Below, piece after piece: positions 7,257 to 34,714 of a stretch of DNA of 64,000 bases (position 1 is the stretch's first letter; each line of letters starts with the position of its first letter). The DNA lies in assembly GCA_048887225.1 (NCBI GenBank), contig JBHLJY010000001.1:32388-96387 (forward strand), given 5' to 3'. The notes beneath the pieces were generated by a model that saw only the letters and a list, made by a program, of their open reading frames with translations, ran no database searches and was not told the DNA's origin. The stretch is from Candidatus Hodarchaeota archaeon (GTDB lineage: Archaea > Asgardarchaeota > Lokiarchaeia > Sigyniarchaeales > SOKP01). A program made the position numbers and the translations under genes.

Positions 7257-7619
7257 ATGTTAATGGAAATAATTGGAGAAGGCTTATCTTGTTCTTCCAA
7301 ATCGGAAGTAATAGGAGAATTCGTATATATTAAGACAGCTGAGGATGTAATAAATTTATTTGATAGCGCTAACGGAAAGATAAGCATTGTAGAGGAGGCA
7401 GGAACTACAACGTTAGGTCCTATTCTATCTGAATTAACTGGCGTAATTTGTACAACGGGCTCAGGTGGTTCTCATCTAGCAATAGTTTCGCGAGAATTTG
7501 ATCTTCCTTGTATAATGGGCACAGAGTTTAAAGTAGATGATATAAATTCTTTAAATGGTAGAAAAGGCAAGATTTCTACTCAAAATAACGATAAAGGAAC
7601 AATATCCTTGGTTGAGTAA
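7257..7619 (+). CDS. PEP-utilising enzyme mobile (swivelling phospho-histidine) domain protein, stand-alone
   Basis: IVEEAGTTTLGPILSELTGVICTTGSGGSHLAIVSREFDLPCIMG matches the PEP-utilizers swivel domain with the catalytic His in GGSH. Confidence 0.75.
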   Translation: MLMEIIGEGLSCSSKSEVIGEFVYIKTAEDVINLFDSANGKISIVEEAGTTTLGPILSELTGVICTTGSGGSHLAIVSREFDLPCIMGTEFKVDDINSLNGRKGKISTQNNDKGTISLVE

Positions 7620-8613
7620 TTTTAAAAAATTGAAAAAATTGAAATATATAATATTTTTTTCTGAAGCGACACCTAATCCTGATTTATTAGGGGGAAAAGG
7701 ATCAAACATAATCAAATTATATGAATTGAATATAAACGTGCCCCCAGGTTTTATTATCACCACTAATTCTTATAATAAATTTCTTAAAGAATCAGAAAAC
7801 TGTTATCAGTTAATACAATTATTGGAGAACGATTTAAATCCGAAAGTGGTATTAGACTTGTCCAAAAAAATTAAAGATTTAATGTTAAAAATCCAAATTC
7901 CGTCAGAAATAATTGAAGAACTTAAACAAGCCTATGGTATTCTATGTAAAGAAACTGACAGCACTTCGTCTTTTGCTGTCAGATCTTCGGCAAATATTGA
8001 GGATTCAAGCACTTTCTCGTTTGCTGGACAAGCGGAAACTTATTTATACAATAATTCTTTTGACGATATATTAGAATCTCTAAAAAATTGCTGGATTTCT
8101 CTATTTTCTCCACAAGCACTGTTATATATAAATCAAATGAAAAAAAAAGGCATAACTTTCTCTTTATTAGATATCCAAATGGCAGTAATTATCCAAAAAA
8201 TGGTCAATTCGCAAATTTCGGGAGTTTTATTTACTGCAAATGTGATTAATAATAACAAAAACGAGATGCTAATAAATTCAACATGGGGTCTTGGTGAAAC
8301 TATAGCTAACAATATGATTATTCCCGATACATTTATAATAAATAAAAAAGAATTTGAAATAATTAAAGCTATGATGGGGAAAAAGGAGAAAATAGCGATT
8401 AAGAATCCTCACGGTTCACACACCATTTTGATAGAGACAGAACCAAAATCTAAGGTAAAATACTCATTAAGTGAGGAACAATTACGCCAACTTCACAAAT
8501 TAGGATTAACCCTCGAAAATAGGTTCAATTATCCTCAAGATATAGAATGGGCAATAGAAAAAGACGTGATTTATACTTTACAAACCCGACCTATTACAAC
8601 CCTTAAGAAGTAA
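7555..8613 (+). CDS. Pyruvate phosphate dikinase / PEP synthase N-terminal ATP-grasp (PPDK_N) domain protein; start uncertain
   Basis: LLGGKGSNIIKLYELNINVPPGFIITTNSY, FAVRSSANIEDSSTFSFAGQAETYL and IQKMVNSQISGVLFTAN are PPDK_N motifs. The only in-frame ATG (7555) overlaps the previous gene by 65 nt. In-frame TTG codons at 7630 and 7639 are alternative starts. Confidence 0.75.
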   Translation: MVEKARFLLKITIKEQYPWLSNFKKLKKLKYIIFFSEATPNPDLLGGKGSNIIKLYELNINVPPGFIITTNSYNKFLKESENCYQLIQLLENDLNPKVVLDLSKKIKDLMLKIQIPSEIIEELKQAYGILCKETDSTSSFAVRSSANIEDSSTFSFAGQAETYLYNNSFDDILESLKNCWISLFSPQALLYINQMKKKGITFSLLDIQMAVIIQKMVNSQISGVLFTANVINNNKNEMLINSTWGLGETIANNMIIPDTFIINKKEFEIIKAMMGKKEKIAIKNPHGSHTILIETEPKSKVKYSLSEEQLRQLHKLGLTLENRFNYPQDIEWAIEKDVIYTLQTRPITTLKK

Positions 8614-10170: not shown

Positions 10171-12666
10171 TTATTTATTCTTAAATAAATTAGATAATTT
10201 TTCTTGAATTAAGTTTGCAAGATTCTTAAAATCTTTAATTAGCGGACTAATTTCTTTCGCAATCTCAGATTCCAATTCTATTGCCTTTTCAATGTATTCT
10301 AATGCTTTATCATATTCCTTATTATCGTAGTAAATGCTTCCTAGAAATAACCATGCTCTAGCATGATCAGAATTTAAGTCTGTTGCCTTTTTATAGCTTT
10401 CAATCGCTTGATTCGATTCGTTTTTATGTTTATAAACATTTCCTTTTCTATACCACGCAATTGCGTAATTTGGATCGATTTCTAATGCTTTATTGATTGA
10501 ATTTAATGCATTATCGTATTCACTTTTAAGGACGTACGCTAGACCCATATCGTTCCACGCATTCACATGATTCGGATCTAATTCTACAGCTTTGTTAAAG
10601 TATTCAATCGCTTTATCGTAATCCTTCTTATTATGATAAGCGTTGCCCATGTTAAAATAAGACTCTACATATGTTTCATCAAGTTTAATTGCTTTATTAC
10701 AAAAATCAATTGCTACATCATATTCTCCGTTTTCTAAATCTTGCTTGACCTTATTATCTAGTTCTTGTTCATATAGTAATTTAATTTTAGAAATTTCTTC
10801 CTCTTTAATGGTTTTATCTTTTATAAGTTCAGATATTTGTAGCGCTTTATCGTAATCTTTAAATGCTTCCTCAAATTTGTTTTTCATTGCTAAAAGATTT
10901 CCATATTCTGATGTTGCACTAATTAACTTTTTTAACTCGTTATCTCTTACGACCGTATATTCAATTAAATCAATGAATTTTAACGCTTTGTCAATTTCTT
11001 GTACGGACTTATTAAATTTATTCCCCTCTGCCTGTAAATCTCCTTGTTCAATTAATAATTCTATTTGATTAGAATAAACGCTATCTATTTGATGTTTAAT
11101 ATCGCTAATCTTTTTCCTTTTACTTTCAGGATCGGTAATTGAGTTAGCTCGTTCCAATTCTTTGTTAAGTTCGTCTAGTTCTTTTTCGAATTTCTTTTGC
11201 TCTTCTGTAACATAACCTTCCGCAACAACTTGCTTCATTTCAGATTGGTACAACAAATTTTTAATAGTGCTAATTTGCTTCTCCATTTCATCTGAGACAT
11301 ACATTTTATTGGAAATCTTCATTGCCCTATTGAATATCTCTCTAGCTTCTTCAAATTTCTTTTTGCTTAATTCATTTTTTCCTTTTTCTAAAATGTTTTC
11401 AATTTCGGAAGAATAAATTTGATTTATCATATTTTTTATATTATCCATCTCAACATTATCATCTTCATCGCATGCCATATTTTTTGCCATGCTTAAAGCA
11501 GAATACATTTCGCTAATAGCTTTTTCATACTCTTTTTGCTCCCTATATTGAACTCCTTTGTCTTTTCTGATTTTAATTCCTGCTGAACATGTTTGATCAA
11601 TTAAATTAGTTATTATATCTAATTGATTATTTTTATCTTCAGAATCTACCATTTCTTTAGCAATCTTCAACACATTATTAAATATTTCGGCAGCTTCAAT
11701 AACTTTTGAGACTGACTCGTCATAATTTTTTTCTTCCGTTATTTGCATTCCACGTTCTTTAATTGGTTTGATTTTCTCAACTAACAATGGATTAATTAAT
11801 TCACCAATAGCGTTAAAATCCCTCTTTTTTTGGTTGGTATCAAACATTTTATTTCCAATATTTATTGCATTTTTTAACTCATTAATGGCCTCATCGGGAT
11901 TATTTTGGTCTATTAATTCTTTTGCTTTCCCTAATATTGGTTGTATTTTCTCTGAATGTATTTGGTTGATTAAGTCTTTTATATTTGATATTTCTGCTTC
12001 TTTTAACTCAGATTCATACATTTTATCTGCCATATTCATGGCATTCTCATAATTTTTAATTGCTTCTTCAGATTTACCGTCTTGTTTCATCTGATTTCCT
12101 TGAGCCTCAATTACCTCTATTTTATCAGAATAAGTTTGATTAGTGAGATTTTTTATATTAATAATATCTTCATTCTCTGGCTCAGAACTGTAAATCTCAT
12201 TAGCATCATTCAACGCTTTTTTGAATATTTCAATCGCGTTGTCAGATTTTAGTTCTTCTTTTAATTTTTTACCCTGTTCTATTACTACTTTTAAATCTGT
12301 TTTACTTATTTCGTATTTAATTTTTTTAATTTCAGAATCTTTTAAACCGATATCGTCAATATTGTTAGCAGTATCTATAGCGTTATTTAAATTATTTATT
12401 GCCTCATCAAATTCTTTTATTTCCACTAAATGATTTGTTTGTTTTATTACATCATTAATTTCAGCAGAATAAGTTTGATCTATTTTTTTTATTATTTTTT
12501 TTACTTCAATTTCTCTATCTTCCATACTTGTAGCTTTTAAACGAAGAAAATTTATACCCTCCCTATATTTTCTAACAGCCTCTTTATAATTCTTCTTATT
12601 TGTGAGATCATCAGCTTCTTGTAATATAGGGTTTAGTTTTTTTAAAATGGATGATTTTTTTGCCAT
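10171..12666 (-). CDS. Large repeat protein: about 640 aa of roughly 65-72-aa helical repeats followed by canonical TPR repeats
   Basis: C-terminal TPRs (YVESYFNMGNAYHNKKDYDKAIEYFNKAVELDPNHVNAWNDMGLAY..., AIAWYRKGNVY..., ARAWLFLGSIYYDNKEYDKALEYIEKAIEL). The N-terminal part repeats the pattern E-I-x-x-IK-x-L-I/T-NQ-x-YS-x-x-I...EEAI..Y..A...A.KMY. Confidence 0.8.
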   Translation of the reverse strand: MAKKSSILKKLNPILQEADDLTNKKNYKEAVRKYREGINFLRLKATSMEDREIEVKKIIKKIDQTYSAEINDVIKQTNHLVEIKEFDEAINNLNNAIDTANNIDDIGLKDSEIKKIKYEISKTDLKVVIEQGKKLKEELKSDNAIEIFKKALNDANEIYSSEPENEDIINIKNLTNQTYSDKIEVIEAQGNQMKQDGKSEEAIKNYENAMNMADKMYESELKEAEISNIKDLINQIHSEKIQPILGKAKELIDQNNPDEAINELKNAINIGNKMFDTNQKKRDFNAIGELINPLLVEKIKPIKERGMQITEEKNYDESVSKVIEAAEIFNNVLKIAKEMVDSEDKNNQLDIITNLIDQTCSAGIKIRKDKGVQYREQKEYEKAISEMYSALSMAKNMACDEDDNVEMDNIKNMINQIYSSEIENILEKGKNELSKKKFEEAREIFNRAMKISNKMYVSDEMEKQISTIKNLLYQSEMKQVVAEGYVTEEQKKFEKELDELNKELERANSITDPESKRKKISDIKHQIDSVYSNQIELLIEQGDLQAEGNKFNKSVQEIDKALKFIDLIEYTVVRDNELKKLISATSEYGNLLAMKNKFEEAFKDYDKALQISELIKDKTIKEEEISKIKLLYEQELDNKVKQDLENGEYDVAIDFCNKAIKLDETYVESYFNMGNAYHNKKDYDKAIEYFNKAVELDPNHVNAWNDMGLAYVLKSEYDNALNSINKALEIDPNYAIAWYRKGNVYKHKNESNQAIESYKKATDLNSDHARAWLFLGSIYYDNKEYDKALEYIEKAIELESEIAKEISPLIKDFKNLANLIQEKLSNLFKNK

Positions 12667-17240: not shown

Positions 17241-17380
17241 TTTTTTAATTTTATATCAAATCTATTTTTTAAAAGAAAAAGAAATTTAATTCCGCCCTTA
17301 TTATTTTAAATAGATAGATATTGAATTAATTAGAAAAGAACTTAAAAATTTATTGTAGGTATAACAACTTGTCCGCACTT

Positions 17381-18685
17381 ATGAAACTTGCCAAGGATGG
17401 AAAAACCACAAAAGAAATGGGAATTGTAGCTCAGAACGAAAAATTAGAAATAGAGTTCATCCGGCGTGGAATTGCTAAAGGGAGGATTATAATACCTAAA
17501 TCGAATCAAAGAGAGTTGGAGCAACCAATAGGTATAGGGAAGGGTTTATTGGTAAAAATTAACGCTAATGTGGGCTCATCGAAAACAATATGTAATGTGG
17601 ATGCAGAAGTTGAGAAAGCAAAAATTGCCGTAAAATTCGGAGCTGATACTGTAATGGATTTAAGTACTGGTGTTACAGAGAAAGATGTAAAAAATATTAG
17701 AGAGCGAATTCTTAGTGAAGTCAATGTTCCGATAGGAACAGTCCCAATTTATCAATCTGCTTTAAGAGCTCTTGAAGGAAAAGGTGCCATTATTCATATG
17801 AATGAGGATGATATGTTTAACGTTATAGAGGAACAAGCTAAAGAAGGAGTGGATTTTTTCACTATACATGTAGGAGTAACAAAAGAGATTGTAAATTATT
17901 TAATAGACCATCCCCGAACTATGGGTGTCGTTTCAAGAGGTGGGACTTTCTTAGCGTCGTGGATTTTAAAAAATGACATGGAGAATCCTTTTAATAGAAG
18001 ATACGATTATTTACTCGAAATGGCGAAAGAGTACGATTTCACTTTATCTTTAGGCGATGGATGTCGGCCAGGATCAATTTTTGATTCAACAGATTATGTT
18101 CAGATTCAAGAATTACTAGAAATTTCTAAATTAGTAAAGCGAGCTTGGAATGCTGATGTACAAGTTATGGTTGAGGGCCCAGGACATATTCCTGCTCATC
18201 AAATTGAGCGTAATATAAAAATTCAGAAGTCGCTCTGTAATGAAGCACCCTTTTATGTTTTAGGTCCTTTAGTTACAGATATAGCTCCAGGTTATGACGA
18301 AATCGTAAGTGCTATAGGTGGAACAATAGCAGGATTAGCAGGCGCGGATTATTTATGCTATGTTACTCCCTCGGAACATTTAGGATTGCCAAATAAAGAT
18401 GAAGTGAAAAGGGGAGTTATAGCTTCTAGAATTGCTGCTCACGCAGTAAATATCGCTAGATATGGTCAAAGAGCTTCAAATTGGGATTACAAAATGGATA
18501 TTGCTCGAAAAAATTTAAACTGGGAAGAGATGATAAAACATTCAATTGATCCCGAGTTAGCAAGAAAGATCCATTATCGAAACGGAAGTTCGATTGATGA
18601 CGATGTTTGTAGCATGTGCGGAGAATTTTGTGCAATAAAACTTCTTAAAGATACGTTAGAAAATAAAAAGAAATCTGAAAAATAA
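17381..18685 (+). CDS. thiC: Phosphomethylpyrimidine synthase ThiC
   Basis: Full-length ThiC-like sequence (VNANVGSS, VMDLSTG, TIHVGV, VSRGG, MVEGPGH, C-terminal CSMCGEFCA Fe-S motif). ATG at 17381 gives MKLAKDGKTTKEMGIVAQNE; the listed ORF starts at TTG 17369. Confidence 0.9.
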   Translation: MKLAKDGKTTKEMGIVAQNEKLEIEFIRRGIAKGRIIIPKSNQRELEQPIGIGKGLLVKINANVGSSKTICNVDAEVEKAKIAVKFGADTVMDLSTGVTEKDVKNIRERILSEVNVPIGTVPIYQSALRALEGKGAIIHMNEDDMFNVIEEQAKEGVDFFTIHVGVTKEIVNYLIDHPRTMGVVSRGGTFLASWILKNDMENPFNRRYDYLLEMAKEYDFTLSLGDGCRPGSIFDSTDYVQIQELLEISKLVKRAWNADVQVMVEGPGHIPAHQIERNIKIQKSLCNEAPFYVLGPLVTDIAPGYDEIVSAIGGTIAGLAGADYLCYVTPSEHLGLPNKDEVKRGVIASRIAAHAVNIARYGQRASNWDYKMDIARKNLNWEEMIKHSIDPELARKIHYRNGSSIDDDVCSMCGEFCAIKLLKDTLENKKKSEK

Positions 18686-18763
18686 TAATTCTATTCCACT
18701 TTAATTAGATTAATTCTTCTTTTTTATAATATTCAAAAAATTAAATCTATAATGGTTATAATT

Positions 18764-19597
18764 ATGAAAAAAGTTTTAACAATCGCAGGTTCAGATTCAG
18801 GCGGAGGTGCTGGAATTCAAGCTGATTTAAAAACTTTTTCAGCACGTGGCGTTTTTGGAATGAGTGCAATAACAGCACTTACGGCTCAAAATACCATAGG
18901 AGTTCAAGGCGTTTTTGAAGTGACTCCAGAATTTGTTGGAGAACAAATAGATTCAGTAATGACTGACATGGGAGCAGATGCTTGGAAAACCGGCATGCTT
19001 TTAAATGCAAAGATTATTCAAAAAGTTTCAGATCGAGCATCTCGATATAATGTTAAGCTTTTAGTAGTAGATCCAGTGATGGTTGCTAAAAGTGGTGATC
19101 CCTTATTACAATCTGAGGCAAAAGATACTCTTATCTCAAAGCTAGTTCCATTGGCTTATGTTATAACCCCAAATCTTCACGAAGCTAAAGTTTTAACAGG
19201 AATAAAAATACAACATATAGAAGAGGCTAAAGAAACTGCAATTAAAATCCATGAACTGGGTGCTAAAAATGTGGTTCTGAAAGGAGGCCATTTCCCAGAC
19301 ACAGAGGAATCCATAGACATTCTTTACAATGGTAAGGAATTTACTATCTTCCAAGCTCCTCGAATTAATACAAAAAACACGCATGGTACAGGATGCACTT
19401 TTGCTTCAGCAATAGCTGCTGAGCTAGCTAAGGGATTCGATATAACAAAAGCAGTACATATTGCTAAAGCATACATAACAAAAGCAATTCAAAGAGCGGA
19501 TGAACTCCACATCGGAAAAGGTCATGGTCCAACGAATCATTTGTTAGGTGATGTTATAGAAGTTGACCTTAATTTAATTAATGTTAAAAAAATATAA
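18764..19597 (+). CDS. thiD: Hydroxymethylpyrimidine/phosphomethylpyrimidine kinase ThiD
   Basis: KVLTIAGSDSGGGAGIQADLKTFSARGVFGMSAITALTAQNT and NTHGTGCTFASAIAAELAKG are ThiD/PfkB-type motifs. ATG at 18764 (alternative 18752). Confidence 0.9.
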   Translation: MKKVLTIAGSDSGGGAGIQADLKTFSARGVFGMSAITALTAQNTIGVQGVFEVTPEFVGEQIDSVMTDMGADAWKTGMLLNAKIIQKVSDRASRYNVKLLVVDPVMVAKSGDPLLQSEAKDTLISKLVPLAYVITPNLHEAKVLTGIKIQHIEEAKETAIKIHELGAKNVVLKGGHFPDTEESIDILYNGKEFTIFQAPRINTKNTHGTGCTFASAIAAELAKGFDITKAVHIAKAYITKAIQRADELHIGKGHGPTNHLLGDVIEVDLNLINVKKI

Positions 19598-19613: not shown

Positions 19614-20189
19614 TTATCGCACGCGATCAAAAGCCCATTTTGCTTTCTCTGTTAATCCAAGTTTTTCGTATGATTTCCCAAGATACAAAAAAGCATCTGG
19701 AAATTTGTAAGTTTCTTTAATTATTTTAAATAAATGACTAATGGCTATATCATATCGTCCTTTAAAATAGAACGTTTTTCCTTTTAAGAAAGTAATAGTA
19801 TAGCTCATATCTTTTGATAGATTTTGACTTTCAAGTACGTTTAACTCTTCAAGTACTTTATCGTATTCTTTTTGTTCTATTAAGCTTTCAATAGCATCAA
19901 CCTGCTTTAAAAATACCATTTTTTCTGCGATTTTTTCGATTTTTGTTCTTTTTTGCATTCTCATTTGCTCTTCTACAGATAAATTTTTTTCTCTCGCTTT
20001 TTTCTCAATGAAATCTTTACTTTTAGCAACTATGTACGAATCGAAATCTCTATCACATAATGGACATTTTGGAGAATGAAGTAACCATTCTGCTAAACAT
20101 GTATCGTGAATAATATGTTGATTGGGACAATTATAGGTCTTATCAACACCTTCATTTATATCCATGTGACAAATTATACAAGAAGGCAT
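19614..20189 (-). CDS. RING-H2 zinc-finger protein with C-terminal TPR-like helical repeats
   Basis: CIIC-x13-C-PNQ-H-II-H-DT-C-x10-CPLC fits C-x2-C-x(9-39)-C-x(1-3)-H-x(2-3)-H-x2-C-x(4-48)-C-x2-C, including the CLAEW tryptophan and CPLC proline. C-terminus FYFKGRYDIAISHLFKII...AFLYLGKSYEKLGLTEKAKWAFDRV is TPR-like. ATG at 20189; the listed ORF starts at TTG 20219. Confidence 0.75.
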   Translation of the reverse strand: MPSCIICHMDINEGVDKTYNCPNQHIIHDTCLAEWLLHSPKCPLCDRDFDSYIVAKSKDFIEKKAREKNLSVEEQMRMQKRTKIEKIAEKMVFLKQVDAIESLIEQKEYDKVLEELNVLESQNLSKDMSYTITFLKGKTFYFKGRYDIAISHLFKIIKETYKFPDAFLYLGKSYEKLGLTEKAKWAFDRVR

Positions 20190-20359
20190 CTTCGGCTTAT
20201 TGACCGTTAATTTAAACAATTGATAAAATATATAGTAAATTAATAAAATTAAATTTTTTAAACAATATGATTTACTAAGATTTTTTTACTAATACTTTTT
20301 TACTAATATTGAACACGCAAAATGAATTCTTATACTTTTAATTTTGTGAGATTATTATT

Positions 20360-21925
20360 ATGGCATTAAATTTAACAAAATCATTTAACACATTATTAAA
20401 TAATTTTTTAGAAAAGAATAAAGAAGTTGAAGCTATAATAGTTTCTGACAGAGACGGACTTATCGTAGCAGGGGAAACTTCAAAAAAAGTTAATGTAGAA
20501 CTTATTTCTGTTTTAACTGCTGTCGTTAATCCAATTTTAGAACGAATTCGAGACGAATTCGCGTTTAAAAAGTTCGGAACAGCAAGTTTTGATACTGATG
20601 AGCATCGTTTACTATTTGTTTCTGTTGATGAAAACGTAACTTTAAGTTTAGTATTAAACACATTAGCTTCGATTGATAAAAATTCGCCTTATGCATATTT
20701 TCTTGCAGAAAAGACAGCTCAGATTATTAACGCCGATGAAGATGATGTAATTCAATTTGATATTCCCGATTTTGAATATGAAGGAGAAAGCGTTGAAAGA
20801 ATAAAAGACCAGATTTATCAATTAAGATTAGATACAGGTGGTAGATATCGGTTCAAATTTATCATAATTGGAGATCATTATGTCGGAAAGACGTCCATCG
20901 TGCGTCAATATGTTGATAAGAAATTTTCAAAAGATTATCGTGCAACGATTGGAATCAATATCTTATCTCATAGCTTTGAATTCTTTGGAAATGAAATAAA
21001 TTTATCTTTATGGGATATTGGGGCGCAGCAGTATTTCAAACGTTTCAGACGTACATATTACACGGGAACACAAGCTGCTTTTATCGTTTTTGACCTAACT
21101 AATCGCGAGTCTTTTGAAAATGCAAAAATGTGGTTTGATGAATTAATAAATTTTATAGGGCGAAAGGATTTGCCTATTGTTATTGTAGGAAATAAAACAG
21201 ATTTGAATGATCAAAGAGTAGTAAATTATGAAGAAGGAGTTAATTTAGCTACTAAATTGGCTGAAAAAGGAGTTTCTAAAATATCTTATATTGAAACAAG
21301 CGCCTTGACAGGTGAAAATATTGACGATGCGTTTAGTTTAATTTCCTATCATTATATAATGAAAAATAAAGAAGCAGAAGAAGAATTATTAAAGGATGCA
21401 TTAATAAACGAAATCAATTGTATTTTAACGAATAAGGATAATTTAACGCTTACCTTTATTACAGAAAACACTTTCTGGAATCCTGGCTTACAAATTATGG
21501 GTGAATTAAATAAGCTAGGAGAATATTCAAAAGTTGTAGATACTAAAGAAGAAAAAATATTTAAATATTCAAATGGATTAGTTTTAAAAAGTAATTTATT
21601 TGACTCTATAGATTTATCTGATTCAGATGGCGCTTTTTGCATATTTGACGCTCGTGATAAGGAGCATATCGATCCTAAATGGAAGGATATCGTAATAAAC
21701 ATTATAGATAGCATACAGGAAAATAAGGTCGTATTAATAGGTGTAAGAGTAGAAGCTGAAAAAATAGACTGGTCAATTTTAATGGAAGAATTTGACGTTA
21801 ACGAGCAATTGGAAAAAAAAATGGTGTCGCTTTTATTCTTTAAGATTGGCATTGAATATCGCTTAGAGATCTATGATCAATTAGAAGTTATGTTAAATAC
21901 CATAAAAACTATTAGTCAAAATTAA
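20360..21925 (+). CDS. Roadblock/LC7-like domain + Rab/Ras-like small GTPase + C-terminal degenerate GTPase-like domain
   Basis: N-terminus VEAIIVSDRDGLIVAGETS...LLFVSVDENVTLSLVL is roadblock-like. G1 GDHYVGKTS, G3 WDIGAQQ, G4 GNKTD, G5 ETSAL. The C-terminal region (about aa 340-521) parallels the G domain but lacks the P-loop and NKxD. Confidence 0.8.
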   Translation: MALNLTKSFNTLLNNFLEKNKEVEAIIVSDRDGLIVAGETSKKVNVELISVLTAVVNPILERIRDEFAFKKFGTASFDTDEHRLLFVSVDENVTLSLVLNTLASIDKNSPYAYFLAEKTAQIINADEDDVIQFDIPDFEYEGESVERIKDQIYQLRLDTGGRYRFKFIIIGDHYVGKTSIVRQYVDKKFSKDYRATIGINILSHSFEFFGNEINLSLWDIGAQQYFKRFRRTYYTGTQAAFIVFDLTNRESFENAKMWFDELINFIGRKDLPIVIVGNKTDLNDQRVVNYEEGVNLATKLAEKGVSKISYIETSALTGENIDDAFSLISYHYIMKNKEAEEELLKDALINEINCILTNKDNLTLTFITENTFWNPGLQIMGELNKLGEYSKVVDTKEEKIFKYSNGLVLKSNLFDSIDLSDSDGAFCIFDARDKEHIDPKWKDIVINIIDSIQENKVVLIGVRVEAEKIDWSILMEEFDVNEQLEKKMVSLLFFKIGIEYRLEIYDQLEVMLNTIKTISQN

Positions 21926-22192: not shown

Positions 22193-22861
22193 ATGGCCAA
22201 TAAAGAGATATTAAGGATTAGAGCAGATAAAGATCAAATTAAAAACATGTACACAAAATTAAGTAAGTTTTATGGACTTATTGAATGGTTTGAGAGGCAA
22301 CTTAGGAAGAAAGCTATAAAATTTTTAAACCCTAGTAAAGGTGAAATTGTGTTGGAGATTGGTTTTGGAAGGGGCGCCTCTCTAGTCGAAATTTCTAAAG
22401 CTGTAGGTGAAACTGGAAAAGTATATGGCATTGATTTAACTCCTGAAATGATCAAACTGTCTAAAAAGATATTAACAAAAAAGAGAATGTTAAATCGGGT
22501 AGAATTAAGAGAAGGAGATGCTCGACAATTACCTTATGAAAATAATGTGTTTGATGGGGTTTACATCGCAAGTACTCTTGAATTATTCGACACCCCCGAT
22601 ATACCCCTTGTTTTGAAAGAAATTAAAAGAGTATTAAAACCTAATGGGAAGTTATGTGTGGTAAGTATTCCGAAGGAAGATCGAGAGAAATCTTTTGGAG
22701 TTAAACTTTACGAATGGTCGCATAGGACATTCCAAAAATATGCAAGTTGCCGACCGATATATGTTGAAGACTCTATAAAAAACACTGGATATAAGATAAC
22801 AAAAACAGAAATAATCGGTAAACTTTTTCCAATGAAAATTGTAATTGCCATGCCTTTATAG
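22193..22861 (+). CDS. Class I SAM-dependent methyltransferase (UbiE/Methyltransf_11-like)
   Basis: Motif I VLEIGFGRGASL, post-I YGIDLTPEMI, and KPNGKLCVVS. Confidence 0.8.
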   Translation: MANKEILRIRADKDQIKNMYTKLSKFYGLIEWFERQLRKKAIKFLNPSKGEIVLEIGFGRGASLVEISKAVGETGKVYGIDLTPEMIKLSKKILTKKRMLNRVELREGDARQLPYENNVFDGVYIASTLELFDTPDIPLVLKEIKRVLKPNGKLCVVSIPKEDREKSFGVKLYEWSHRTFQKYASCRPIYVEDSIKNTGYKITKTEIIGKLFPMKIVIAMPL

Positions 22862-25843: not shown

Positions 25844-26182
25844 TAATTAATTATTTTCCTTTTTTTAATTTTTCGTAATGTTTGGATCAACATAAATCCT
25901 TCAACATTTTACTAGAAAGGATAATAATTCTCTTCGGACAGAGCTTGCGCTATTTATTTATGATCGAGATCTCTGATCTAATGGCTCGGTTTATATCACG
26001 TGGGCTTTCTTGTAGGACATCGCAATTTTGTCGAGCGGTCGATCTTTGAAAATTTATTAACCCAAACATACTCTATCGAGAAATTTACGCAATCTTTAAA
26101 TATTTGAACGAAATATTATTATTTAATGGAGTTCATGTTAAAAAATATGAACTTTGCATTAAGAATTTTAAAAATATAATAT

Positions 26183-26187
26183 GGAGG
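26183..26187 (+). promoter_or_regulatory. Shine-Dalgarno-like GGAGG upstream of histone ATG
   Basis: ggagg lies 9 nt upstream of the ATG at 26197 (atatggaggaataaaaaaATG). Confidence 0.4.
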
Positions 26188-26196
26188 AATAAAAAA

Positions 26197-26409
26197 ATGG
26201 CTAAAAAAGTTTTTGCCTGGAGTCCAGTCCGTAAGTTAATGAAAGACAATGGTGCTGAAATGGTTGCTCGAGACGCTGTAGATGCCTTGATTGATTATTT
26301 AGAGAAAACTGCGAAAAATGTTACTAATAAAGCTTTAGAAATGACTCGACATGCTGGAAGAAAAAAGCTCACACTAGAAGATATGGGCCTGGCAATGAAG
26401 TTGATGTAA
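26197..26409 (+). CDS. Archaeal histone (HMf family histone fold)
   Basis: MAKKVFAWSPVRKLMKDNGAEMVARDAVDALIDYLEKTAKNVTNKALEMTRHAGRKKLTLEDMGLAMKLM, 70 aa with the RHAGRK-T/L signature. The listed ORF start (TTG 26104) adds an implausible 31-aa extension. Confidence 0.85.
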   Translation: MAKKVFAWSPVRKLMKDNGAEMVARDAVDALIDYLEKTAKNVTNKALEMTRHAGRKKLTLEDMGLAMKLM

Positions 26410-28840: not shown

Positions 28841-29089
28841 TTAGCCACCAGCAATTATAGGGAATAAAGCAACGATATCTCCGCTTTTAAGAACGAAGTT
28901 ACTTTCTATGTGGGGTCTTCCATTAACCATAATAATGAGGTTCCTATCATCCTTAGAAATTTTATATTTTTCCAGAATTGCTTTGATGGTACTCCCTTCC
29001 TGTAAGTCTAGGACAGTTCGATCTGGTCCATATTCCCTTAAATCAGCAAATAACTTAACTGTTACTGAGATAGCATTAGTTTTAGTCAT
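28841..29089 (-). CDS. MoaD/ThiS/SAMP-type ubiquitin-like beta-grasp protein with C-terminal Gly-Gly
   Basis: 82 aa, VTVKLFADLREYG...NGRPHIESNFVLKSGDIVALFPIIAGG*. The start overlaps the upstream ORF stop by 8 nt (ATGACTAA). Confidence 0.75.
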   Translation of the reverse strand: MTKTNAISVTVKLFADLREYGPDRTVLDLQEGSTIKAILEKYKISKDDRNLIIMVNGRPHIESNFVLKSGDIVALFPIIAGG

Positions 29090-29369
29090 TTTCTACTTTT
29101 TTAAAATACCACTTATACAACAATCCCATTCTTTTGGGGAATATTGCCACTCTATCCCCATCATTGACTTTTTTTCCAAATCCAGAAAATATTCCACTTA
29201 CAAAAATATGGCTGGTTTCTGATTCATCTATAGTGAACTTTTTAAGAATGTCAGATACCGTCTCTATATCTTCATTTTTGATCATCATTGTTATAGGAGC
29301 ACCCCCCTTAGCGATTTGATTTTTTACTTTTTCTCTTAATTCTCCAAAGAATTTGATTTCTATTGGCAT
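29082..29369 (-). CDS. Beta-grasp (Ub-Mut7C/MoaD-like) domain protein lacking C-terminal Gly-Gly
   Basis: MPIEIKFFGELREK...SHIFVSGIFSGFGKKVNDGDRVAIFPKRMG has the pattern of the ThiS/MoaD superfamily (aromatic-G-x-L-R/K-E start, NG...DGDxVxxFP end). Ends ...KKVEND. Confidence 0.6.
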   Translation of the reverse strand: MPIEIKFFGELREKVKNQIAKGGAPITMMIKNEDIETVSDILKKFTIDESETSHIFVSGIFSGFGKKVNDGDRVAIFPKRMGLLYKWYFKKVEND

Positions 29370-29410: not shown

Positions 29411-29465
29411 TTATTATAATATCAATTTATCTAGTATAAATTTGTAAATAAAATCTTTTTTTTTA
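29411..29465. repeat. Duplicated leader/promoter block, copy upstream of 29082-29369
   Basis: ttattataatatcaatttatctagtataaatttgtaaataaaatcttttttttt aligns with 29986-30045. It contains the stop codon (29463-29465) of the fused Ubl gene. Confidence 0.7.
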
Positions 29466-29951
29466 AAATGTAACAATATCTCCATCTCTAAGAACGAAAT
29501 TCACATTAGAGCAAGGTTTTTCATTAACCTTGATTTTAATATTATTTTTATCCTTAGAAAATTTGTATTTTTTTAGTAATGATTTAAGAGTGCTCCCTTC
29601 AGGTATTTCTATCACTGTTTCAGCCAGTCCATATTCTCTTAAATCACCATCAAGTTGGATTTTAACTGAGATAAATTTATCTATTGCAATTTCTAAGAAC
29701 ATCAATGCCATTCGCCTCGGGAATAATCCTACTCGGTCTCCATCCCTAATCCTTCTTCCAATTTCAGAATATTTTCCATTAACAAATATATGACTTATTT
29801 CAGTCTTTTCTATGATCAGCTTTTTAAGAACATCTAATACAGTTTTAATCCCTTTATCTTCGATATTTAGTGTGATTGGAACACCTACATCGATGCTTTG
29901 TTGTTTGGCTTTTTCTTTTAAGTCTCCATATAATCTTACTTGTAGCGGCAT
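29463..29951 (-). CDS. Fused di-beta-grasp (tandem ubiquitin-like) protein, no Gly-Gly terminus
   Basis: The N-terminal domain MPLQVRLYGDLKEK...DGDRVGLFPRRMA is paralogous to 29082-29369. The C-terminal domain ISVKIQLDGDLREYG...VLRDGDIVTF* is paralogous to 28841-29089. ATG 29951 matches the paralogue's MPI/MPL start; the listed ORF begins 48 nt earlier at 29999. Confidence 0.65.
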   Translation of the reverse strand: MPLQVRLYGDLKEKAKQQSIDVGVPITLNIEDKGIKTVLDVLKKLIIEKTEISHIFVNGKYSEIGRRIRDGDRVGLFPRRMALMFLEIAIDKFISVKIQLDGDLREYGLAETVIEIPEGSTLKSLLKKYKFSKDKNNIKIKVNEKPCSNVNFVLRDGDIVTF

Positions 29952-29985
29952 TTTCTTTAAGCTTTCTAGATTTAAAGATAATCGG

Positions 29986-30045
29986 TTATTAATATCCAAT
30001 TTATCTAAGAAATTAAGTCTAAATAAAATCTTTTTTTTTAAAAAA
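29986..30045. repeat. Duplicated leader/promoter block, copy upstream of fused Ubl gene
   Basis: ttattaatatccaatttatctaagaaattaagtctaaataaaatcttttttttt aligns with 29411-29465. Confidence 0.7.
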
Positions 30046-30147: not shown

Positions 30148-31317
30148 ATGATTGATAAAACAAAAATAGCGATACAAAAGATAGATAATGATGACATAAA
30201 AACTGCGGTATTTAAAGCGCTTGAAATGATTAATGCCCAAGAATTAATGGTAAATGAAGATATGACTGTATTAATAAAACCAAATATTTTAATGGGTAAA
30301 CCACCTGAAAGAGCAGTTAATACACATCCAGAAATAGTAAAATCTGTAATTCAATGGGTAAAACAATTCAATCCTTTAAAAATTTATGTAAGTGATTCTT
30401 CGGGTGGCCAAAAATCTGGTATTACAAGAATTGCGATGCAAGAGAGTGGTATTCAGCTAGTTTGTGAGGAAGAAGGTGTAGAATGCATTCCTTTTGAAAA
30501 AACTATTACAGAAGATTATAAAGTATTAGAACCTCTTGAAATGAAAGAATTCACTAGTTCAAGATTGATTAGAGATGCCGATATTATAATTAACATACCT
30601 AAAATTAAGACACATTGGCAATGTATCCTTACATGCTGCATTAAAAATATGTTTGGAACAATATTATTAGGGAACAAAGCGAAAACTCATGGAGAATTTC
30701 CTGATTTAGACAGATTTTGTGCAGCTTTAGTTGATATTTATTCAGTTTCTAAGCCACAATTAACAGTAATTGATGGTTTCTTTTGTCAAGAAGGAAATGG
30801 TCCAACTCAAGGTGATGTTGTTAAGTTAGATTTAATTTTAGCTGGTTATGATGGTGTTGCTTTAGACACGGCTGTTTGCAAAATTATTGGTTTTGATCCC
30901 AAAAAGATATTATACTTAGCAAAAGCGGAAGAAAAGGGATTAGGAACCACACATTTAGAAGATATAGAGTTTTTAGGAGAAAAAATTGAAGATGTATCTT
31001 GCGAATTTAAACAACCAAAAAAATATAGAATTTTTAAACCAACAGTTAAATTCAATAATAATTGTAAACTATGTTATGAATGTTGGACAAACTGTCCAGC
31101 ACAAGCCATAACGCGTCCAATACTGTCTAAAAAAATAATGACTCCAAAATGGAATAAAAAACCGTGTATAACGTGTTATTGTTGTGTTGAAATATGTCCA
31201 AACGAGGCTATTGATTTTAAGATTAATTATATCAAAAATGCATTACTCGCGTTTTTATGTATTGGTTTAGTTTCGATCTTAGTTCTTTTAATATTTTTTA
31301 TAACATGGATTATTTAA
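30148..31317 (+). CDS. DUF362 domain protein fused to 2x[4Fe-4S] ferredoxin domain with C-terminal TM helix
   Basis: VLIKPNIL...HPEIVKSV...IINIPKIKTH is a DUF362-like core. CKLCYECWTNCP and CITCYCCVEICP are ferredoxin motifs. C-terminal LLAFLCIGLVSILVLLIFFITWII. Confidence 0.75.
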   Translation: MIDKTKIAIQKIDNDDIKTAVFKALEMINAQELMVNEDMTVLIKPNILMGKPPERAVNTHPEIVKSVIQWVKQFNPLKIYVSDSSGGQKSGITRIAMQESGIQLVCEEEGVECIPFEKTITEDYKVLEPLEMKEFTSSRLIRDADIIINIPKIKTHWQCILTCCIKNMFGTILLGNKAKTHGEFPDLDRFCAALVDIYSVSKPQLTVIDGFFCQEGNGPTQGDVVKLDLILAGYDGVALDTAVCKIIGFDPKKILYLAKAEEKGLGTTHLEDIEFLGEKIEDVSCEFKQPKKYRIFKPTVKFNNNCKLCYECWTNCPAQAITRPILSKKIMTPKWNKKPCITCYCCVEICPNEAIDFKINYIKNALLAFLCIGLVSILVLLIFFITWII

Positions 31318-34432: not shown

Positions 34433-34714
34433 ATGGAACGAAAGATTCAGCAGAAATCTCGTAGACCTATTGATTATTTAAAAGATTCGATAAATAAAGT
34501 TATTTTAATAAAGGTTAAAAGGAACCGACTGTTTAGAGGGAAATTGGAAGGATTTGATGAGCATTTAAATTTATATCTTGAGGGGACTTCCCAAATTTTT
34601 GAATATCAAGATGAAGATGGGAACATACGTGAAGAACACGAAAATTTAGGTTCAATCGTTGTGCGTGGAGATAATGTTATCTTTGTTGATCTAGCACGAA
34701 ACAACATGTTTTGA
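34433..34714 (+). CDS. Sm-like (LSm/SmAP) RNA-binding protein
   Basis: Sm1 VILIKVKRNRLFRGKLEGFDEHLNLYLEG and Sm2 LGSIVVRGDNVIFV, with a longer than usual loop between them. Confidence 0.8.
   Translation: MERKIQQKSRRPIDYLKDSINKVILIKVKRNRLFRGKLEGFDEHLNLYLEGTSQIFEYQDEDGNIREEHENLGSIVVRGDNVIFVDLARNNMF

What the first reader, a model, noticed from the sequence alone, without database searches (positions are those of the whole stretch)
19614..20189. Textbook RING-H2 finger fused to TPR-like repeats in an archaeal context
The sequence CIICHMDINEGVDKTYNCPNQHIIHDTCLAEWLLHSPKCPLCDRDF satisfies every spacing rule of the eukaryotic RING-H2 cross-brace (C-x2-C-x13-C-x3-H-x2-H-x2-C-x10-C-x2-C). It also has the secondary hallmarks: Trp four residues after Cys6, and CP-x-C at the last pair. 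RING E3-like proteins are established as eukaryotic signature proteins reported in Asgard archaea, usually discussed next to Ub/E1/E2 genes. Here no Ub, E1 or E2 is nearby. The RING is fused to a helical TPR-like substrate-binding-type module. It is divergently paired, across a 170-nt shared intergenic region, with the roadblock-GTPase gene.
Basis: partly seen in the sequence, partly recalled or inferred. Interest (0 to 1): 0.55.

Follow-up and report, generated by a model that had tools for sequence, protein, structure and literature searches.

The report
Lokiarchaeal RING-H2/TPR protein paired with GTPase
This Asgard (Lokiarchaeota-type) gene encodes a genuine eukaryote-style RING-H2 zinc finger joined to a small TPR domain, a family already auto-annotated in databases; what appears to be new is that it almost always sits head-to-head with a roadblock/Rab-like GTPase gene, hinting at ubiquitin-type control of a small GTPase in archaea.

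Summary
The ORF at 19614-20189 (-) encodes a 191-aa protein with three parts:
- an N-terminal RING-H2. Pfam zf-RING_2 scores 32.4 bits against a cut-off of 27.3, and the best solved relative is the Arkadia/RNF165 RING at E=1e-6;
- two long helices;
- three TPR-like hairpins (AF2 pLDDT 89.9; TM-score 0.7-0.83 to 3-repeat TPR proteins).

All eight zinc ligands are invariant in 82 close homologues and stay invariant down to 25% identity. The residues RINGs use to bind E2 are also conserved: Ile5/Ile6, Trp35, Pro43 and Leu44. The basic 'linchpin' residue after Cys8 is not conserved.

The family occurs in at least 116 species-level genomes, almost all labelled Lokiarchaeota/Promethearchaeota. NCBI already names it 'RING finger domain-containing protein'.

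The divergent pairing with the 521-aa roadblock/Rab-like GTPase holds in 78 of 79 informative genome loci. It also holds in 54 of 54 informative metagenome loci chosen through the GTPase.

One caveat applies. Thiamine genes flank the RING gene almost as constantly (74/78). A distant clade keeps the thiamine genes but not the GTPase.

No ubiquitin, E1 or E2 gene lies in the window. E3 activity and a functional GTPase link are inferred, not shown. This is a new member of a known kind, of moderate interest.

The parts
19614..20189 (-). RING-H2 / coiled helix / TPR protein gene (191 aa plus stop codon)
   Evidence: ORF. 92 full-length homologue clusters of 185-205 aa at 41-86% identity. Relatives in 116 species-level genomes.
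20043..20183 (-). RING-H2 finger, residues 3-49 (C4 C7 C21 H25 H28 C31 C42 C45; W35; P43)
   Evidence: Pfam zf-RING_2 scores 32.4 bits against a cut-off of 27.3. Arkadia RING 2kiz matches at E=1e-6. All 8 ligands and W35 are invariant in 82 sequences, and the ligands stay invariant down to 25% identity. Foldseek against BFVD finds RING and RING-H2 hits at 1.3-2.2 A rmsd.
19875..20039 (-). Two long helices, residues 51-105, Lys/Glu-rich; a possible coiled-coil or dimerisation stalk (inferred)
   Evidence: AF2 DSSP assigns helices at 51-68 and 72-105 with pLDDT 70-95.
19626..19865 (-). Three TPR-like helical hairpins, residues 109-188, with the conserved motif KAKWAFDR at the C-terminal end
   Evidence: Foldseek against PDB: CTPR3, FLU-TPR, MamA and YbgF at TM-score (normalised to target length) 0.66-0.83 and rmsd about 2 A. 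Pfam TPR models match weakly, below cut-off. G137, D147, I150, F167, Y174, W185 and A186 are invariant. K182, W185 and R189 are invariant across the broad family.
20190..20359 (.). 170-nt AT-rich intergenic region shared by the divergent RING and GTPase genes
   Evidence: Coordinates. The equivalent spacer is 99-272 nt in 77 of 78 genome loci. It carries TATA-like A/T blocks that are conserved within clades.
20360..21925 (+). 521-aa multidomain GTPase. Roadblock-like domain (residues 1-123, 20360-20728); conserved acidic, low-confidence linker (124-163); Rab-like G domain (164-330, 20849-21349); long helix (321-358); family-specific alpha/beta domain (362-520, 21443-21919).
   Evidence: Pfam Ras 1.4e-44, Roc and Arf; weak Robl_LC7 and MAPKK1_Int matches. 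AF2 model. Foldseek finds Rab27b, Rab8a and Rab6 at 30-37% identity. The gene lies divergently upstream of RING in 78/79 genome loci and 54/54 metagenome loci.
17369..19597 (+). ThiC (17369-18685) and ThiD (18752-19597). These thiamine genes are the conserved downstream neighbours of the RING gene; here ThiD is convergent, 16 nt from the RING stop codon.
   Evidence: Pfam ThiC_Rad_SAM 1.7e-182 and Phos_pyr_kin 4.6e-99. A ThiD-like gene lies next to or near RING in 74/78 loci, and in 51 of them a ThiD-ThiN fusion runs in the same direction with a gap of 11-121 nt.

Best explanation
The gene encodes a small cytoplasmic RING-H2 protein built like a minimal single-chain E3 ligase. The N-terminal RING would recruit a ubiquitin-charged (or Ubl-charged) E2. 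A two-helix stalk may dimerise the protein. A three-repeat TPR module with conserved basic residues would dock the partner or substrate. The most likely partner is the product of the divergently transcribed neighbour, a roadblock/Rab-like multidomain GTPase, and in most relatives also its tandem paralogue. The pair would then form a ubiquitin-type control module for a small-GTPase switch, working like eukaryotic RNF152 acting on RagA. Shown here: the RING-H2 sequence signature, its conservation, the predicted fold, the TPR fold, and the near-universal gene pairing. Inferred: E2 binding, ligase activity, and the GTPase as target or partner. One speculative detail: the conserved acidic, predicted-disordered GTPase linker (consensus IPNFEYE, residues ~135-141) is a candidate TPR ligand.
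For: RING identity: zf-RING_2 passes its curated cut-off. Arkadia, RNF165 and RNF126 RING-H2 domains are the best PDB matches. The eight ligands and W35 are invariant in 82 sequences, and the ligands are invariant down to 25% identity. AF2 pLDDT is 89.9, and the model matches RING and RING-H2 domains structurally.
E2-contact positions are conserved: I5 and I6 100% aliphatic, W35 100%, P43 99%, L44 94%.
The TPR fold is supported.
Pairing: the GTPase lies divergently upstream in 78 of 79 informative genome loci, with a spacer of 99-272 nt in 77 of the 78. The reciprocal test gave 54 of 54 informative metagenome loci selected by the GTPase's C-terminal domain. The pair stays intact while genes on its outer sides change: ThiD versus ThiDN downstream of the RING gene, and IDH, a methyltransferase or a second GTPase copy beyond the GTPase.
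Distance matrices of RING and GTPase correlate beyond ThiC: partial r=0.51, permutation p=5e-4. This is a weak kind of evidence.
Lokiarchaeota genomes are reported to carry ubiquitin-system genes in a separate region (PMC9192718). An Asgard E1/E2/RING E3 cascade has been reconstituted (bioRxiv 10.1101/2023.07.25.550441).
Against: No ubiquitin, E1 or E2 gene lies in the 64-kb window, and I could not check the rest of this genome. The basic 'linchpin' residue after Cys8, which stimulates E2~Ub discharge in many active RINGs, is not conserved (S26 N22 R12 T11 D5 of 82). Thiamine genes flank the RING gene almost as constantly as the GTPase does. In a distant clade (244-257 aa) the thiamine genes remain but the GTPase is not adjacent. 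So part of the pairing may be inherited gene order rather than function. No RING-GTPase fusion protein was found among distant relatives. No interaction prediction could be run.
Confidence: 0.5

Rival explanations
1. It is a RING-H2/TPR E3 ligase, but its substrate is unrelated to the GTPase. The adjacency would be inherited gene order within one slowly rearranging lokiarchaeal block: IDH - GTPase(s) - RING - ThiD/ThiDN - ThiC - Nudix.
For: The whole block recurs across the 80 genome loci. Thiamine genes are adjacent or near in 74/78 loci. The distant clade keeps the thiamine genes but lacks the adjacent GTPase. No domain fusion with a GTPase was found.
Against: The RING-GTPase junction is the most stable one in the block (78/79 and 54/54), with a tightly constrained 99-272 nt spacer, while genes on both outer sides are replaced or inverted. 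The proteins have diverged to 41-60% identity, a distance at which archaeal gene order is usually kept only for linked functions (established comparative-genomics knowledge).
Confidence: 0.25
2. It is a zinc-finger/TPR adaptor with no ligase activity. For example, it could be an effector or regulator that reads the nucleotide state of the GTPase, or an E3-like factor for a non-ubiquitin beta-grasp modifier (SAMP, Urm1, ThiS/MoaD type).
For: The linchpin residue is not conserved. No E1, E2 or ubiquitin gene is in the window. Three ThiS-family beta-grasp genes, one ending in Gly-Gly, lie 8.7-10 kb away. An extra, nearly invariant His8 next to Cys7 is not a standard RING feature.
Against: The E2-contact residues (Ile, Trp, Pro-Leu) are conserved as strictly as the zinc ligands, which is hard to explain without an E2-like partner. 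The ThiS-like genes sit beside AOR and DUF362 genes, a context typical of cofactor sulfur carriers. Known archaeal SAMP conjugation needs no E2 or E3 (established knowledge).
Confidence: 0.13
3. It is a CHIP-like quality-control ligase. The TPR would dock on acidic C-terminal tails of chaperones, and the RING would ubiquitylate their clients.
For: The parts list matches CHIP: a three-repeat TPR, a long helical stalk and an E2-binding domain. The best TPR structural matches include Hsp90-peptide-binding TPRs: CTPR390, HOP TPR2A and RPAP3. Conserved Lys and Arg residues occur in the TPR.
Against: The domain order is reversed, and the E2-binding domain is a zinc RING rather than a U-box. No chaperone gene is a conserved neighbour. 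The carboxylate-clamp geometry could not be checked.
Confidence: 0.07
4. It functions with thiamine metabolism, for example by controlling the stability of ThiD/ThiDN, ThiC or ThiW. In most relatives it is apparently co-transcribed with them.
For: 51 of 78 loci have a ThiD-ThiN gene running in the same direction 11-121 nt downstream. In the distant clade the order RING - ThiW - unknown - ThiDN has gaps of about 5-25 nt.
Against: In the window's own lineage ThiD is convergent, not co-transcribed. No precedent is known to me for RING control of thiamine enzymes. ThiC and ThiD are housekeeping genes whose clustering explains itself.
Confidence: 0.05

Closest known systems
Eukaryotic RING-H2 E3 domains of the zf-RING_2 type (Arkadia/RNF111, RNF165/ARK2C, RNF126, HRD1)
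   Same: The C3H2C3 ligand pattern and spacing match. Shared features are Ile after Cys1, Trp in the central helix and CP-x-C at the last pair. These are the best sequence matches among solved structures, with E from 1e-6 to 8e-4.
   Different: Three residues (not one) separate Cys3 and His4. No Arg or Lys linchpin follows Cys8. The RING is N-terminal and fused to a TPR module. The host is an archaeon.
Experimentally studied archaeal RING E3s: the Helarchaeia E1/E2/RING E3 cascade acting on UEV-Vps23 (bioRxiv 10.1101/2023.07.25.550441) and the Caldiarchaeum subterraneum E1/E2/(RING) E3 operon (Hennell James et al. 2017, cited there)
   Same: These are archaeal RING fingers of eukaryotic type, and they show that such proteins can work with archaeal E1, E2 and Ub.
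   Different: Those RINGs are small proteins encoded inside ubiquitin/ESCRT gene clusters. This one has a TPR module, lies far from any ubiquitin-system gene, and is paired with a GTPase instead.
CHIP/STUB1 (TPR - helical hairpin - U-box)
   Same: Both combine a three-repeat TPR docking module, a long helical stalk and an E2-binding domain in one short chain (CHIP architecture as described in PMC4638040).
   Different: The order is reversed (RING first), and this protein has a zinc-dependent RING-H2 rather than a zinc-free U-box. No detectable sequence relationship exists outside the generic TPR.
RNF152 acting on RagA, Rheb and Ragulator p18
   Same: This is the working model: a RING E3 that recognises a small GTPase of a roadblock-containing system according to its nucleotide state and ubiquitylates it to change its regulation (PMC7313026; PMC11068552).
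   Different: RNF152 is a membrane-anchored C3HC4 RING without TPR. The relation here rests only on gene neighbourhood. The archaeal GTPase is Rab-like with an N-terminal roadblock domain, so it is not a Rag.
Roadblock-GTPase fusions of Lokiarchaeota, and the MglB/MglA pair (for the neighbouring gene)
   Same: Roadblock domains fused to Ras-like or Rag-like GTPases were already reported in Lokiarchaeum (PMC4917890; 'RB-GTPase architectures' in PMC10933270).
   Different: The papers I could search mention neither a RING partner nor the extra C-terminal domain. Here the G3 motif is WD-x-G-A-Q rather than Rab's WDTAGQ.

Membership tests
RING-H2 finger (Pfam zf-RING_2, PF13639) | Eight zinc ligands in the order C-C-C-H-H-C-C-C with consensus spacing C-x2-C-x(9-39)-C-x(1-3)-H-x(2-3)-H-x2-C-x(4-48)-C-x2-C | tested here: met
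   The spacing is x2, x13, x3, x2, x2, x10, x2. All eight ligands are invariant in 82 homologues and in 18 relatives down to 25% identity.
RING-H2 finger (Pfam zf-RING_2, PF13639) | Profile score above the curated gathering threshold | tested here: met
   32.4 bits against a cut-off of 27.3, E=1.1e-7, residues 3-45 covering model positions 2-43 of 44.
RING-H2 finger (Pfam zf-RING_2, PF13639) | RING fold: a beta-hairpin followed by a central helix, superposable on known RING domains | tested here: met
   The AF2 model has strands at 18-20 and 26-28 and a helix at 29-36, with pLDDT 82-91. Foldseek against BFVD aligns 48-59 columns to RING, RING-H2, APC11-like and LAP proteins at 1.3-2.2 A rmsd. 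E-values are weak (0.03-0.08) because the domain is small. A PDB search of the whole model was dominated by the TPR part.
RING-H2 finger (Pfam zf-RING_2, PF13639) | Cross-brace binding of two zinc ions (ligand pairs 1+3 and 2+4) | not testable with these tools
   Model coordinates are not exposed and AF2 places no metal. The cross-brace is implied only by homology to Arkadia-type RINGs.
RING-type E3 ubiquitin ligase (function) | Conserved E2-contact surface: an aliphatic residue after Cys1, Trp or another hydrophobic residue in the helix, and Pro-hydrophobic after Cys7 | tested here: met
   I5/I6 are 100% aliphatic, W35 100%, P43 99%, L44 94%. Which positions contact E2 comes from established RING-E2 structures (my knowledge).
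RING-type E3 ubiquitin ligase (function) | Basic 'linchpin' residue directly after Cys8, which primes E2~Ub. It is common in highly active RINGs but is not universal. | tested here: not met
   Position 46 is S26 N22 R12 T11 D5 Q3 E2 in 82 sequences, and Asp in the window protein.
RING-type E3 ubiquitin ligase (function) | Cognate ubiquitin, E1 and E2 encoded in the same genome | not tested
   They are absent from the 64-kb window, and the rest of the genome is not available. Lokiarchaeota in general are reported to have a separate ubiquitin gene region (PMC9192718).
RING-type E3 ubiquitin ligase (function) | Stimulates ubiquitin transfer from E2 | not testable with these tools
   This needs biochemistry.
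TPR repeat domain | Three or more tandem helix-turn-helix repeats of about 34 residues forming a right-handed superhelix | tested here: met
   The model has six helices between residues 109 and 188. TM-score (normalised to target length) is 0.66-0.83 at about 2 A rmsd to CTPR3, FLU-TPR and YbgF TPR. Individual Pfam TPR models stay below their cut-offs (TPR_6 20.5 against 26.3).
CHIP-like ligases (TPR - coiled coil - U-box) | U-box (zinc-free) E2-binding domain at the C-terminus, TPR at the N-terminus | tested here: not met
   The zinc ligands are present and invariant, and the RING is N-terminal with the TPR C-terminal. The resemblance is in architecture only.
Rag GTPases (for the paired neighbour) | Gtr1/RagA-type G domain followed by a C-terminal roadblock domain | tested here: not met
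   Gtr1_RagA scores 20 bits, below its cut-off of 22. The Ras/Rab models are far stronger (152 bits), and the roadblock-like domain is N-terminal.
Roadblock/LC7 domain (N-terminus of the neighbour) | Alpha-beta-beta-alpha-beta-beta-beta-alpha roadblock fold recognised by a profile | tested here: inconclusive
   The AF2 secondary-structure order fits. Sequence support is weak: Robl_LC7 E=0.029 and MAPKK1_Int E=0.0023; the family profile against PDB 7yh1 Roadblock/LC7 gives E=0.035.

The most novel reading that the evidence does not exclude
The RING-TPR protein and the roadblock/Rab-like GTPase(s) form a dedicated two-gene module, conserved across Lokiarchaeota, in which a small GTPase switch is read or reset by ubiquitylation. 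That would be an archaeal forerunner of the RING-E3 control of Rag, Rheb and Rab GTPases seen in eukaryotes, and it would be encoded apart from the ubiquitin/ESCRT cluster.
Probability: 0.3. Interest if true: 0.75.

Novelty: new member of a known kind. Interest (0 to 1): 0.45.

Why it matters
RING E3-like proteins and small GTPases are both counted among the eukaryotic signature proteins of Asgard archaea. So far they have been discussed separately, with RINGs tied to ubiquitin/ESCRT gene clusters.

A strictly conserved head-to-head RING/GTPase pair gives a concrete hypothesis that a bench lab can test. The hypothesis is that ubiquitin-type regulation of a small-GTPase switch predates eukaryotes. 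It also names a candidate substrate for an archaeal E3, and few such substrates are known.

If the link is only inherited gene order, the gene is one more annotated Asgard RING protein of unknown target.

Tried and rejected
1. A Foldseek search of the whole RING-TPR model against PDB returned only TPR proteins in the top 50. The RING is too small to rank there. The BFVD search gave the RING matches instead.
2. Identity of the GTPase's C-terminal domain (residues 362-520) remains open. Its profile hit Rnd1/Rho6 at E=1.3e-3 over the beta4-alpha3-beta5 region, which suggested a degenerate second G domain. But hhalign against the protein's own G domain (probability 0.7%) and against its roadblock domain (0.2%) gave nothing. 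The whole-protein Foldseek search returned only Rab/Ras hits to the true G domain.
3. I looked for a 'Rosetta stone' fusion. Distant relatives embed the RING-helix-TPR module in proteins of 445-675 aa, but the extra parts have no Pfam domain and none is a GTPase.
4. A defence-system origin is rejected: PADLOC gave no meaningful hit for either protein.
5. The intergenic spacer shows A/T-rich, TATA-like blocks conserved within clades, but no motif shared across clades that I could call a common operator.
6. The ThiS/Ub-Mut7C tandem ORF at 29463-29999 was considered as a nearby ubiquitin. It lacks a C-terminal Gly-Gly and sits in an AOR/DUF362 context.
7. Literature searches found no description of this RING-TPR family or of its pairing with the GTPase. 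The Spang et al. 2015 paper was not held.
8. The mirror-tree correlation is reported but given little weight.
Full report
**Observation**

The minus-strand ORF ending at 19614 is real. The ATG at 20189 gives a 191-aa protein beginning MPSCIICH. The upstream TTG at 20219 is unlikely to be the start, since 77 of 82 homologues begin at this Met.

Trp35 lies four residues after Cys31, and the last pair reads C-P-L-C. A canonical RING regular expression matches once in the six-frame translation of the window and never in 60 shuffled windows.

**Family assignment**

- Pfam zf-RING_2 scores 32.4 bits against its curated cut-off of 27.3, over residues 3-45. Other RING models follow (zf-C3HC4_2, zf-RING_16, zf-rbx1), and no non-RING zinc-finger family scores better.
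- Among solved structures, the best sequence matches are the RING-H2 domains of Arkadia (E=1e-6), RNF165/ARK2C, RNF126 and HRD1.
- A search of 5.8 billion proteins returned 92 clusters. Nearly all are full-length (185-205 aa), at 41-86% identity. Where named, they are 'RING finger domain-containing protein' or 'tetratricopeptide repeat protein' from Promethearchaeota or Lokiarchaeota MAGs.
- In NCBI taxonomy, Promethearchaeota is the phylum that holds class Promethearchaeia, inside the Asgard kingdom Promethearchaeati.
- A scan of one genome per species found relatives in 116 genomes. The closest (RING 88%, GTPase 96% identical) is a MAG contig labelled Thorarchaeota by its submitter. Nearly all others are labelled Promethearchaeota.

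So the family is Asgard-specific, essentially lokiarchaeal, and already recognised by automatic annotation.

**Conservation**

- In 82 aligned homologues the eight ligands and Trp35 are invariant.
- In a wider set reaching 25% identity the eight ligands and Pro43 remain invariant, as do Lys182, Trp185 and Arg189 of the TPR end.
- The positions that contact E2 in known RING-E2 complexes (my knowledge of c-Cbl/UbcH7-type and RNF4/UbcH5-type structures) are as conserved as the ligands: Ile5 and Ile6 100% aliphatic, Trp35 100%, Pro43 99%, Leu44 94%.
- The residue after Cys8, a basic 'linchpin' in many highly active RINGs, is variable: Ser, Asn, Arg, Thr or Asp, and Asp in this protein.
- His8 and Tyr49 are nearly invariant, and I cannot explain why.

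**Structure**

- AF2 with the 82-sequence alignment gives mean pLDDT 89.9. The model has a beta-hairpin (18-20, 26-28) and a helix (29-36) in the RING. Two long helices follow (51-68, 72-105), then six helices (109-188).
- Against PDB the model matches 3-repeat TPR proteins: CTPR3, FLU-TPR, MamA, YbgF, HOP TPR2A. TM-scores normalised to target length are about 0.6-0.83, at roughly 2-3 A rmsd.
- Against predicted viral structures, the N-terminal ~50 residues align to many giant-virus RING, RING-H2, APC11-like and LAP proteins. The alignments span 48-59 columns at 1.3-2.2 A rmsd and 24-32% identity. Their E-values are weak (0.03-0.08) because the domain is small.
- The two-zinc cross-brace itself could not be inspected because coordinates are not exposed.

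**Window context**

I scanned the ORFs of at least 120 aa, plus selected small ORFs from intergenic gaps, against Pfam.

- There is no ubiquitin (PF00240), no ThiF-type E1 and no UQ_con E2.
- The neighbours are metabolic: Nudix, ThiC and ThiD on one side; a methyltransferase and an isocitrate/isopropylmalate dehydrogenase on the other.
- About 8.7-10 kb away there are three ThiS-family beta-grasp ORFs beside DUF362 and aldehyde:ferredoxin oxidoreductase genes. One of them (28841-29089, 82 aa) ends in Gly-Gly. That context points to cofactor sulfur carriers or SAMP-like proteins rather than ubiquitin.

**The pairing with the GTPase**

*Loci selected by the RING gene.* tblastn of the window's proteins against the 80 genome loci found the GTPase in 78. 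It was always on the opposite strand, upstream of the RING start. The spacer was 99-272 nt in 77 loci and 882 nt in one. Of the two remaining loci, one contig ends 110 nt upstream of the RING gene. The other (L020) has an AOR gene there and is the single true exception.

*Loci selected by the GTPase.* I then reversed the test. Eighty metagenome loci were selected by the GTPase's family-specific C-terminal domain. Fifty-four are informative for the RING-proximal GTPase copy, and all 54 have the divergent RING gene. Five further loci looked like exceptions. In each of them the contig carries two tandem GTPase paralogues, and the first copy is cut by the contig end.

*Tandem paralogue.* Such a second paralogue (54-58% identical) is present in 54 of 76 genome loci. 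The window has a methyltransferase at that place.

*Co-variation.* Pairwise distances of RING and GTPase correlate (r=0.76). They remain correlated after removing what ThiC explains (partial r=0.51, permutation p=5e-4). I treat this only as weak support, because fast-evolving proteins track phylogeny better than a slow one.

The other side of the RING gene is almost as constant.

- 51 of 78 loci have a ThiD-ThiN fusion gene 11-121 nt downstream, running in the same direction.
- 8 loci, including the window's type, have a convergent ThiD directly adjacent.
- 13 loci have a convergent ThiD about 600 nt away.

A sensitive profile search found 34 cluster representatives at E<=1e-30. Among them is a distant clade of 230-257 aa with a longer Cys2-Cys3 loop and an extra C-terminal helix. 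Some of its members are labelled Lokiarchaeota.

In the two contexts of this clade that I could read, the GTPase is not adjacent. LSM and Alba genes lie upstream, and ThiW, an unknown gene and ThiDN follow in the same direction, with ThiC beyond. An intermediate relative (197 aa, 41% identity) has both the GTPase and ThiDN.

So the RING gene sits in an old syntenic block. The thiamine linkage is phylogenetically deeper than the GTPase linkage.

**The partner**

The 521-aa neighbour belongs to a family of at least 120 clusters of 516-537 aa (two of 582 aa) at 61-96% identity, so it is more conserved than the RING protein.

- Pfam sees Ras (1.4e-44), Roc and Arf in residues 164-330. Only weak roadblock-type matches appear at the N-terminus.
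- The AF2 model (pLDDT 71.9) shows a roadblock-like alpha/beta domain (1-123) and a low-confidence but sequence-conserved acidic linker (124-163; consensus includes IPNFEYE). Then come the G domain, a long helix (321-358) and a confident alpha/beta domain (362-520).
- The G domain matches Rab27b, Rab8a and Rab6 at 30-37% identity.
- G1 (GDHxVGKTS), G4 (GNKxD) and G5 (ETSA) are canonical. G3 reads WD-x-G-A-Q.
- The C-terminal domain could not be identified.
- Roadblock-GTPase fusions in Lokiarchaeum are already in the literature (PMC4917890; PMC10933270).

**Mechanism**

The best-supported reading is a compact E3-type protein in which the RING recruits a charged E2, the helical stalk may dimerise, and the TPR docks a partner.

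The strongest candidate partner is the neighbouring GTPase. Conserved, closely spaced divergent gene pairs are a recognised indicator of functional coupling (established comparative-genomics knowledge).

Eukaryotes offer a direct working analogue. RNF152 ubiquitylates RagA selectively in its GDP state and thereby promotes GAP binding (PMC7313026).

Two published results make the E3 reading plausible. Asgard RINGs can act in an E1/E2/E3 cascade, as shown for Helarchaeia (bioRxiv 10.1101/2023.07.25.550441). Lokiarchaeota keep their ubiquitin genes in a separate region (PMC9192718).

Every step beyond 'this is a RING-H2 plus TPR protein whose gene is paired with the GTPase gene' is inference.

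The rivals are inherited synteny without functional coupling, a non-ligase adaptor or an E3 for another Ubl, a CHIP-like quality-control ligase, and a thiamine-related role. They are set out with their evidence in the structured fields.

**Novelty and verdict**

RING E3-like proteins in Asgard archaea are well known, and this family already carries a RING annotation. The finger itself is therefore a new member of a known kind.

RING-plus-TPR ligases also exist in eukaryotes: CHIP with a U-box, and TTC3 from my memory.

I found no description of the near-universal pairing with a roadblock/Rab-like GTPase, which lies outside the ubiquitin/ESCRT cluster. I ran four literature searches, but the library is incomplete.

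Interest is moderate. The finding is correct and gives a testable lead, but it is not a surprise to a specialist unless the GTPase link is proven.

Noticed in passing
window 28841-29089 (-), 29082-29369 (-), 29463-29999 (-): A cluster of three ThiS/MoaD-family beta-grasp ORFs lies beside DUF362 (30148-31317) and aldehyde:ferredoxin oxidoreductase (31531-33267). The 82-aa one ends in ...IIAGG (C-terminal diglycine, SAMP/MoaD/ThiS type). The 95-aa one and the 178-aa tandem (Ub-Mut7C + ThiS) do not end in GG. No E1-like gene lies nearby.
   Followed up: partly
L005, L007, L009, L010 and 50 other genome loci; L087, L092, L110, L125, L128: Most relatives carry a second, tandem paralogue of the roadblock/Rab-like GTPase (54-58% identical) directly downstream of the first. 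The window has a methyltransferase gene (22193-22861) at that position instead.
   Followed up: partly
L161 5001-8492; L166 1349-4213: A distant clade of the RING-TPR family (244-257 aa, longer Cys2-Cys3 loop, extra C-terminal helix) has no adjacent GTPase in the contexts I could read (L161, L166). It sits in an operon-like row RING - ThiW - unknown gene - ThiD-ThiN, with LSM upstream in both loci and Alba in L161.
   Followed up: partly
window 20360-21925 (+), residues 218-223 and 124-163: The GTPase's G3 motif is WD-x-G-A-Q, with Gly and Ala swapped relative to Rab's WDTAGQ and closer to the Arf/Rag motif WDxGGQ. The roadblock-to-G-domain linker is predicted disordered, yet its sequence is conserved and acidic (IPNFEYE, with Pro136 and Phe138 invariant).
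   Followed up: no
window 21443-21919 (+), GTPase residues 362-520: A confidently modelled alpha/beta domain has no Pfam family. Its profile weakly matches the beta4-alpha3-beta5 region of Rnd1/Rho6 (E=1.3e-3), but profile-profile comparison with the protein's own G domain is negative. It may be a degenerate G domain; this is unresolved.
   Followed up: partly
P0217, P0219, P0223, P0226, P0230, P0235, P0241, P0243: The complete RING-helix-TPR module also occurs inside larger proteins of 445-675 aa, at either end. The additional 200-450 residues match no Pfam domain.
   Followed up: partly
window 50439-51410 (+) and 51432-52457 (+): An acetyl-CoA-synthetase-like AMP-binding enzyme is split into two consecutive ORFs (the N-terminal and C-terminal parts of the AMP-binding domain). 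This may be a frameshift, a pseudogene or an assembly error.
   Followed up: no
window 7257-7619 (+) and 7555-8613 (+): A PEP-utilizers mobile domain and a PPDK_N ATP-binding domain are encoded in two overlapping ORFs. Their order is the opposite of the usual order in PEP synthase and PPDK.
   Followed up: no
window 10171-12666 (-): This ORF encodes an 831-aa protein with a weak N-terminal MIT-like match (below cut-off) and a long, strong TPR array at the C-terminus.
   Followed up: no
window 26104-26409 (+) and 34433-34714 (+): An archaeal histone-fold gene (CBFD_NFYB_HMF, with a ~35-aa N-terminal extension if the TTG start is real) and an LSM/Sm-like gene.
   Followed up: no
L001 (JBHLQY010000009.1) and other JBHL... 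records: The window's closest relative is labelled 'Candidatus Thorarchaeota'. Sister records from the same submission are labelled Odin-, Hermod- or Hodarchaeota, yet their genes are as similar to the window as those of records labelled Promethearchaeota/Lokiarchaeota. The labels look unreliable.
   Followed up: no
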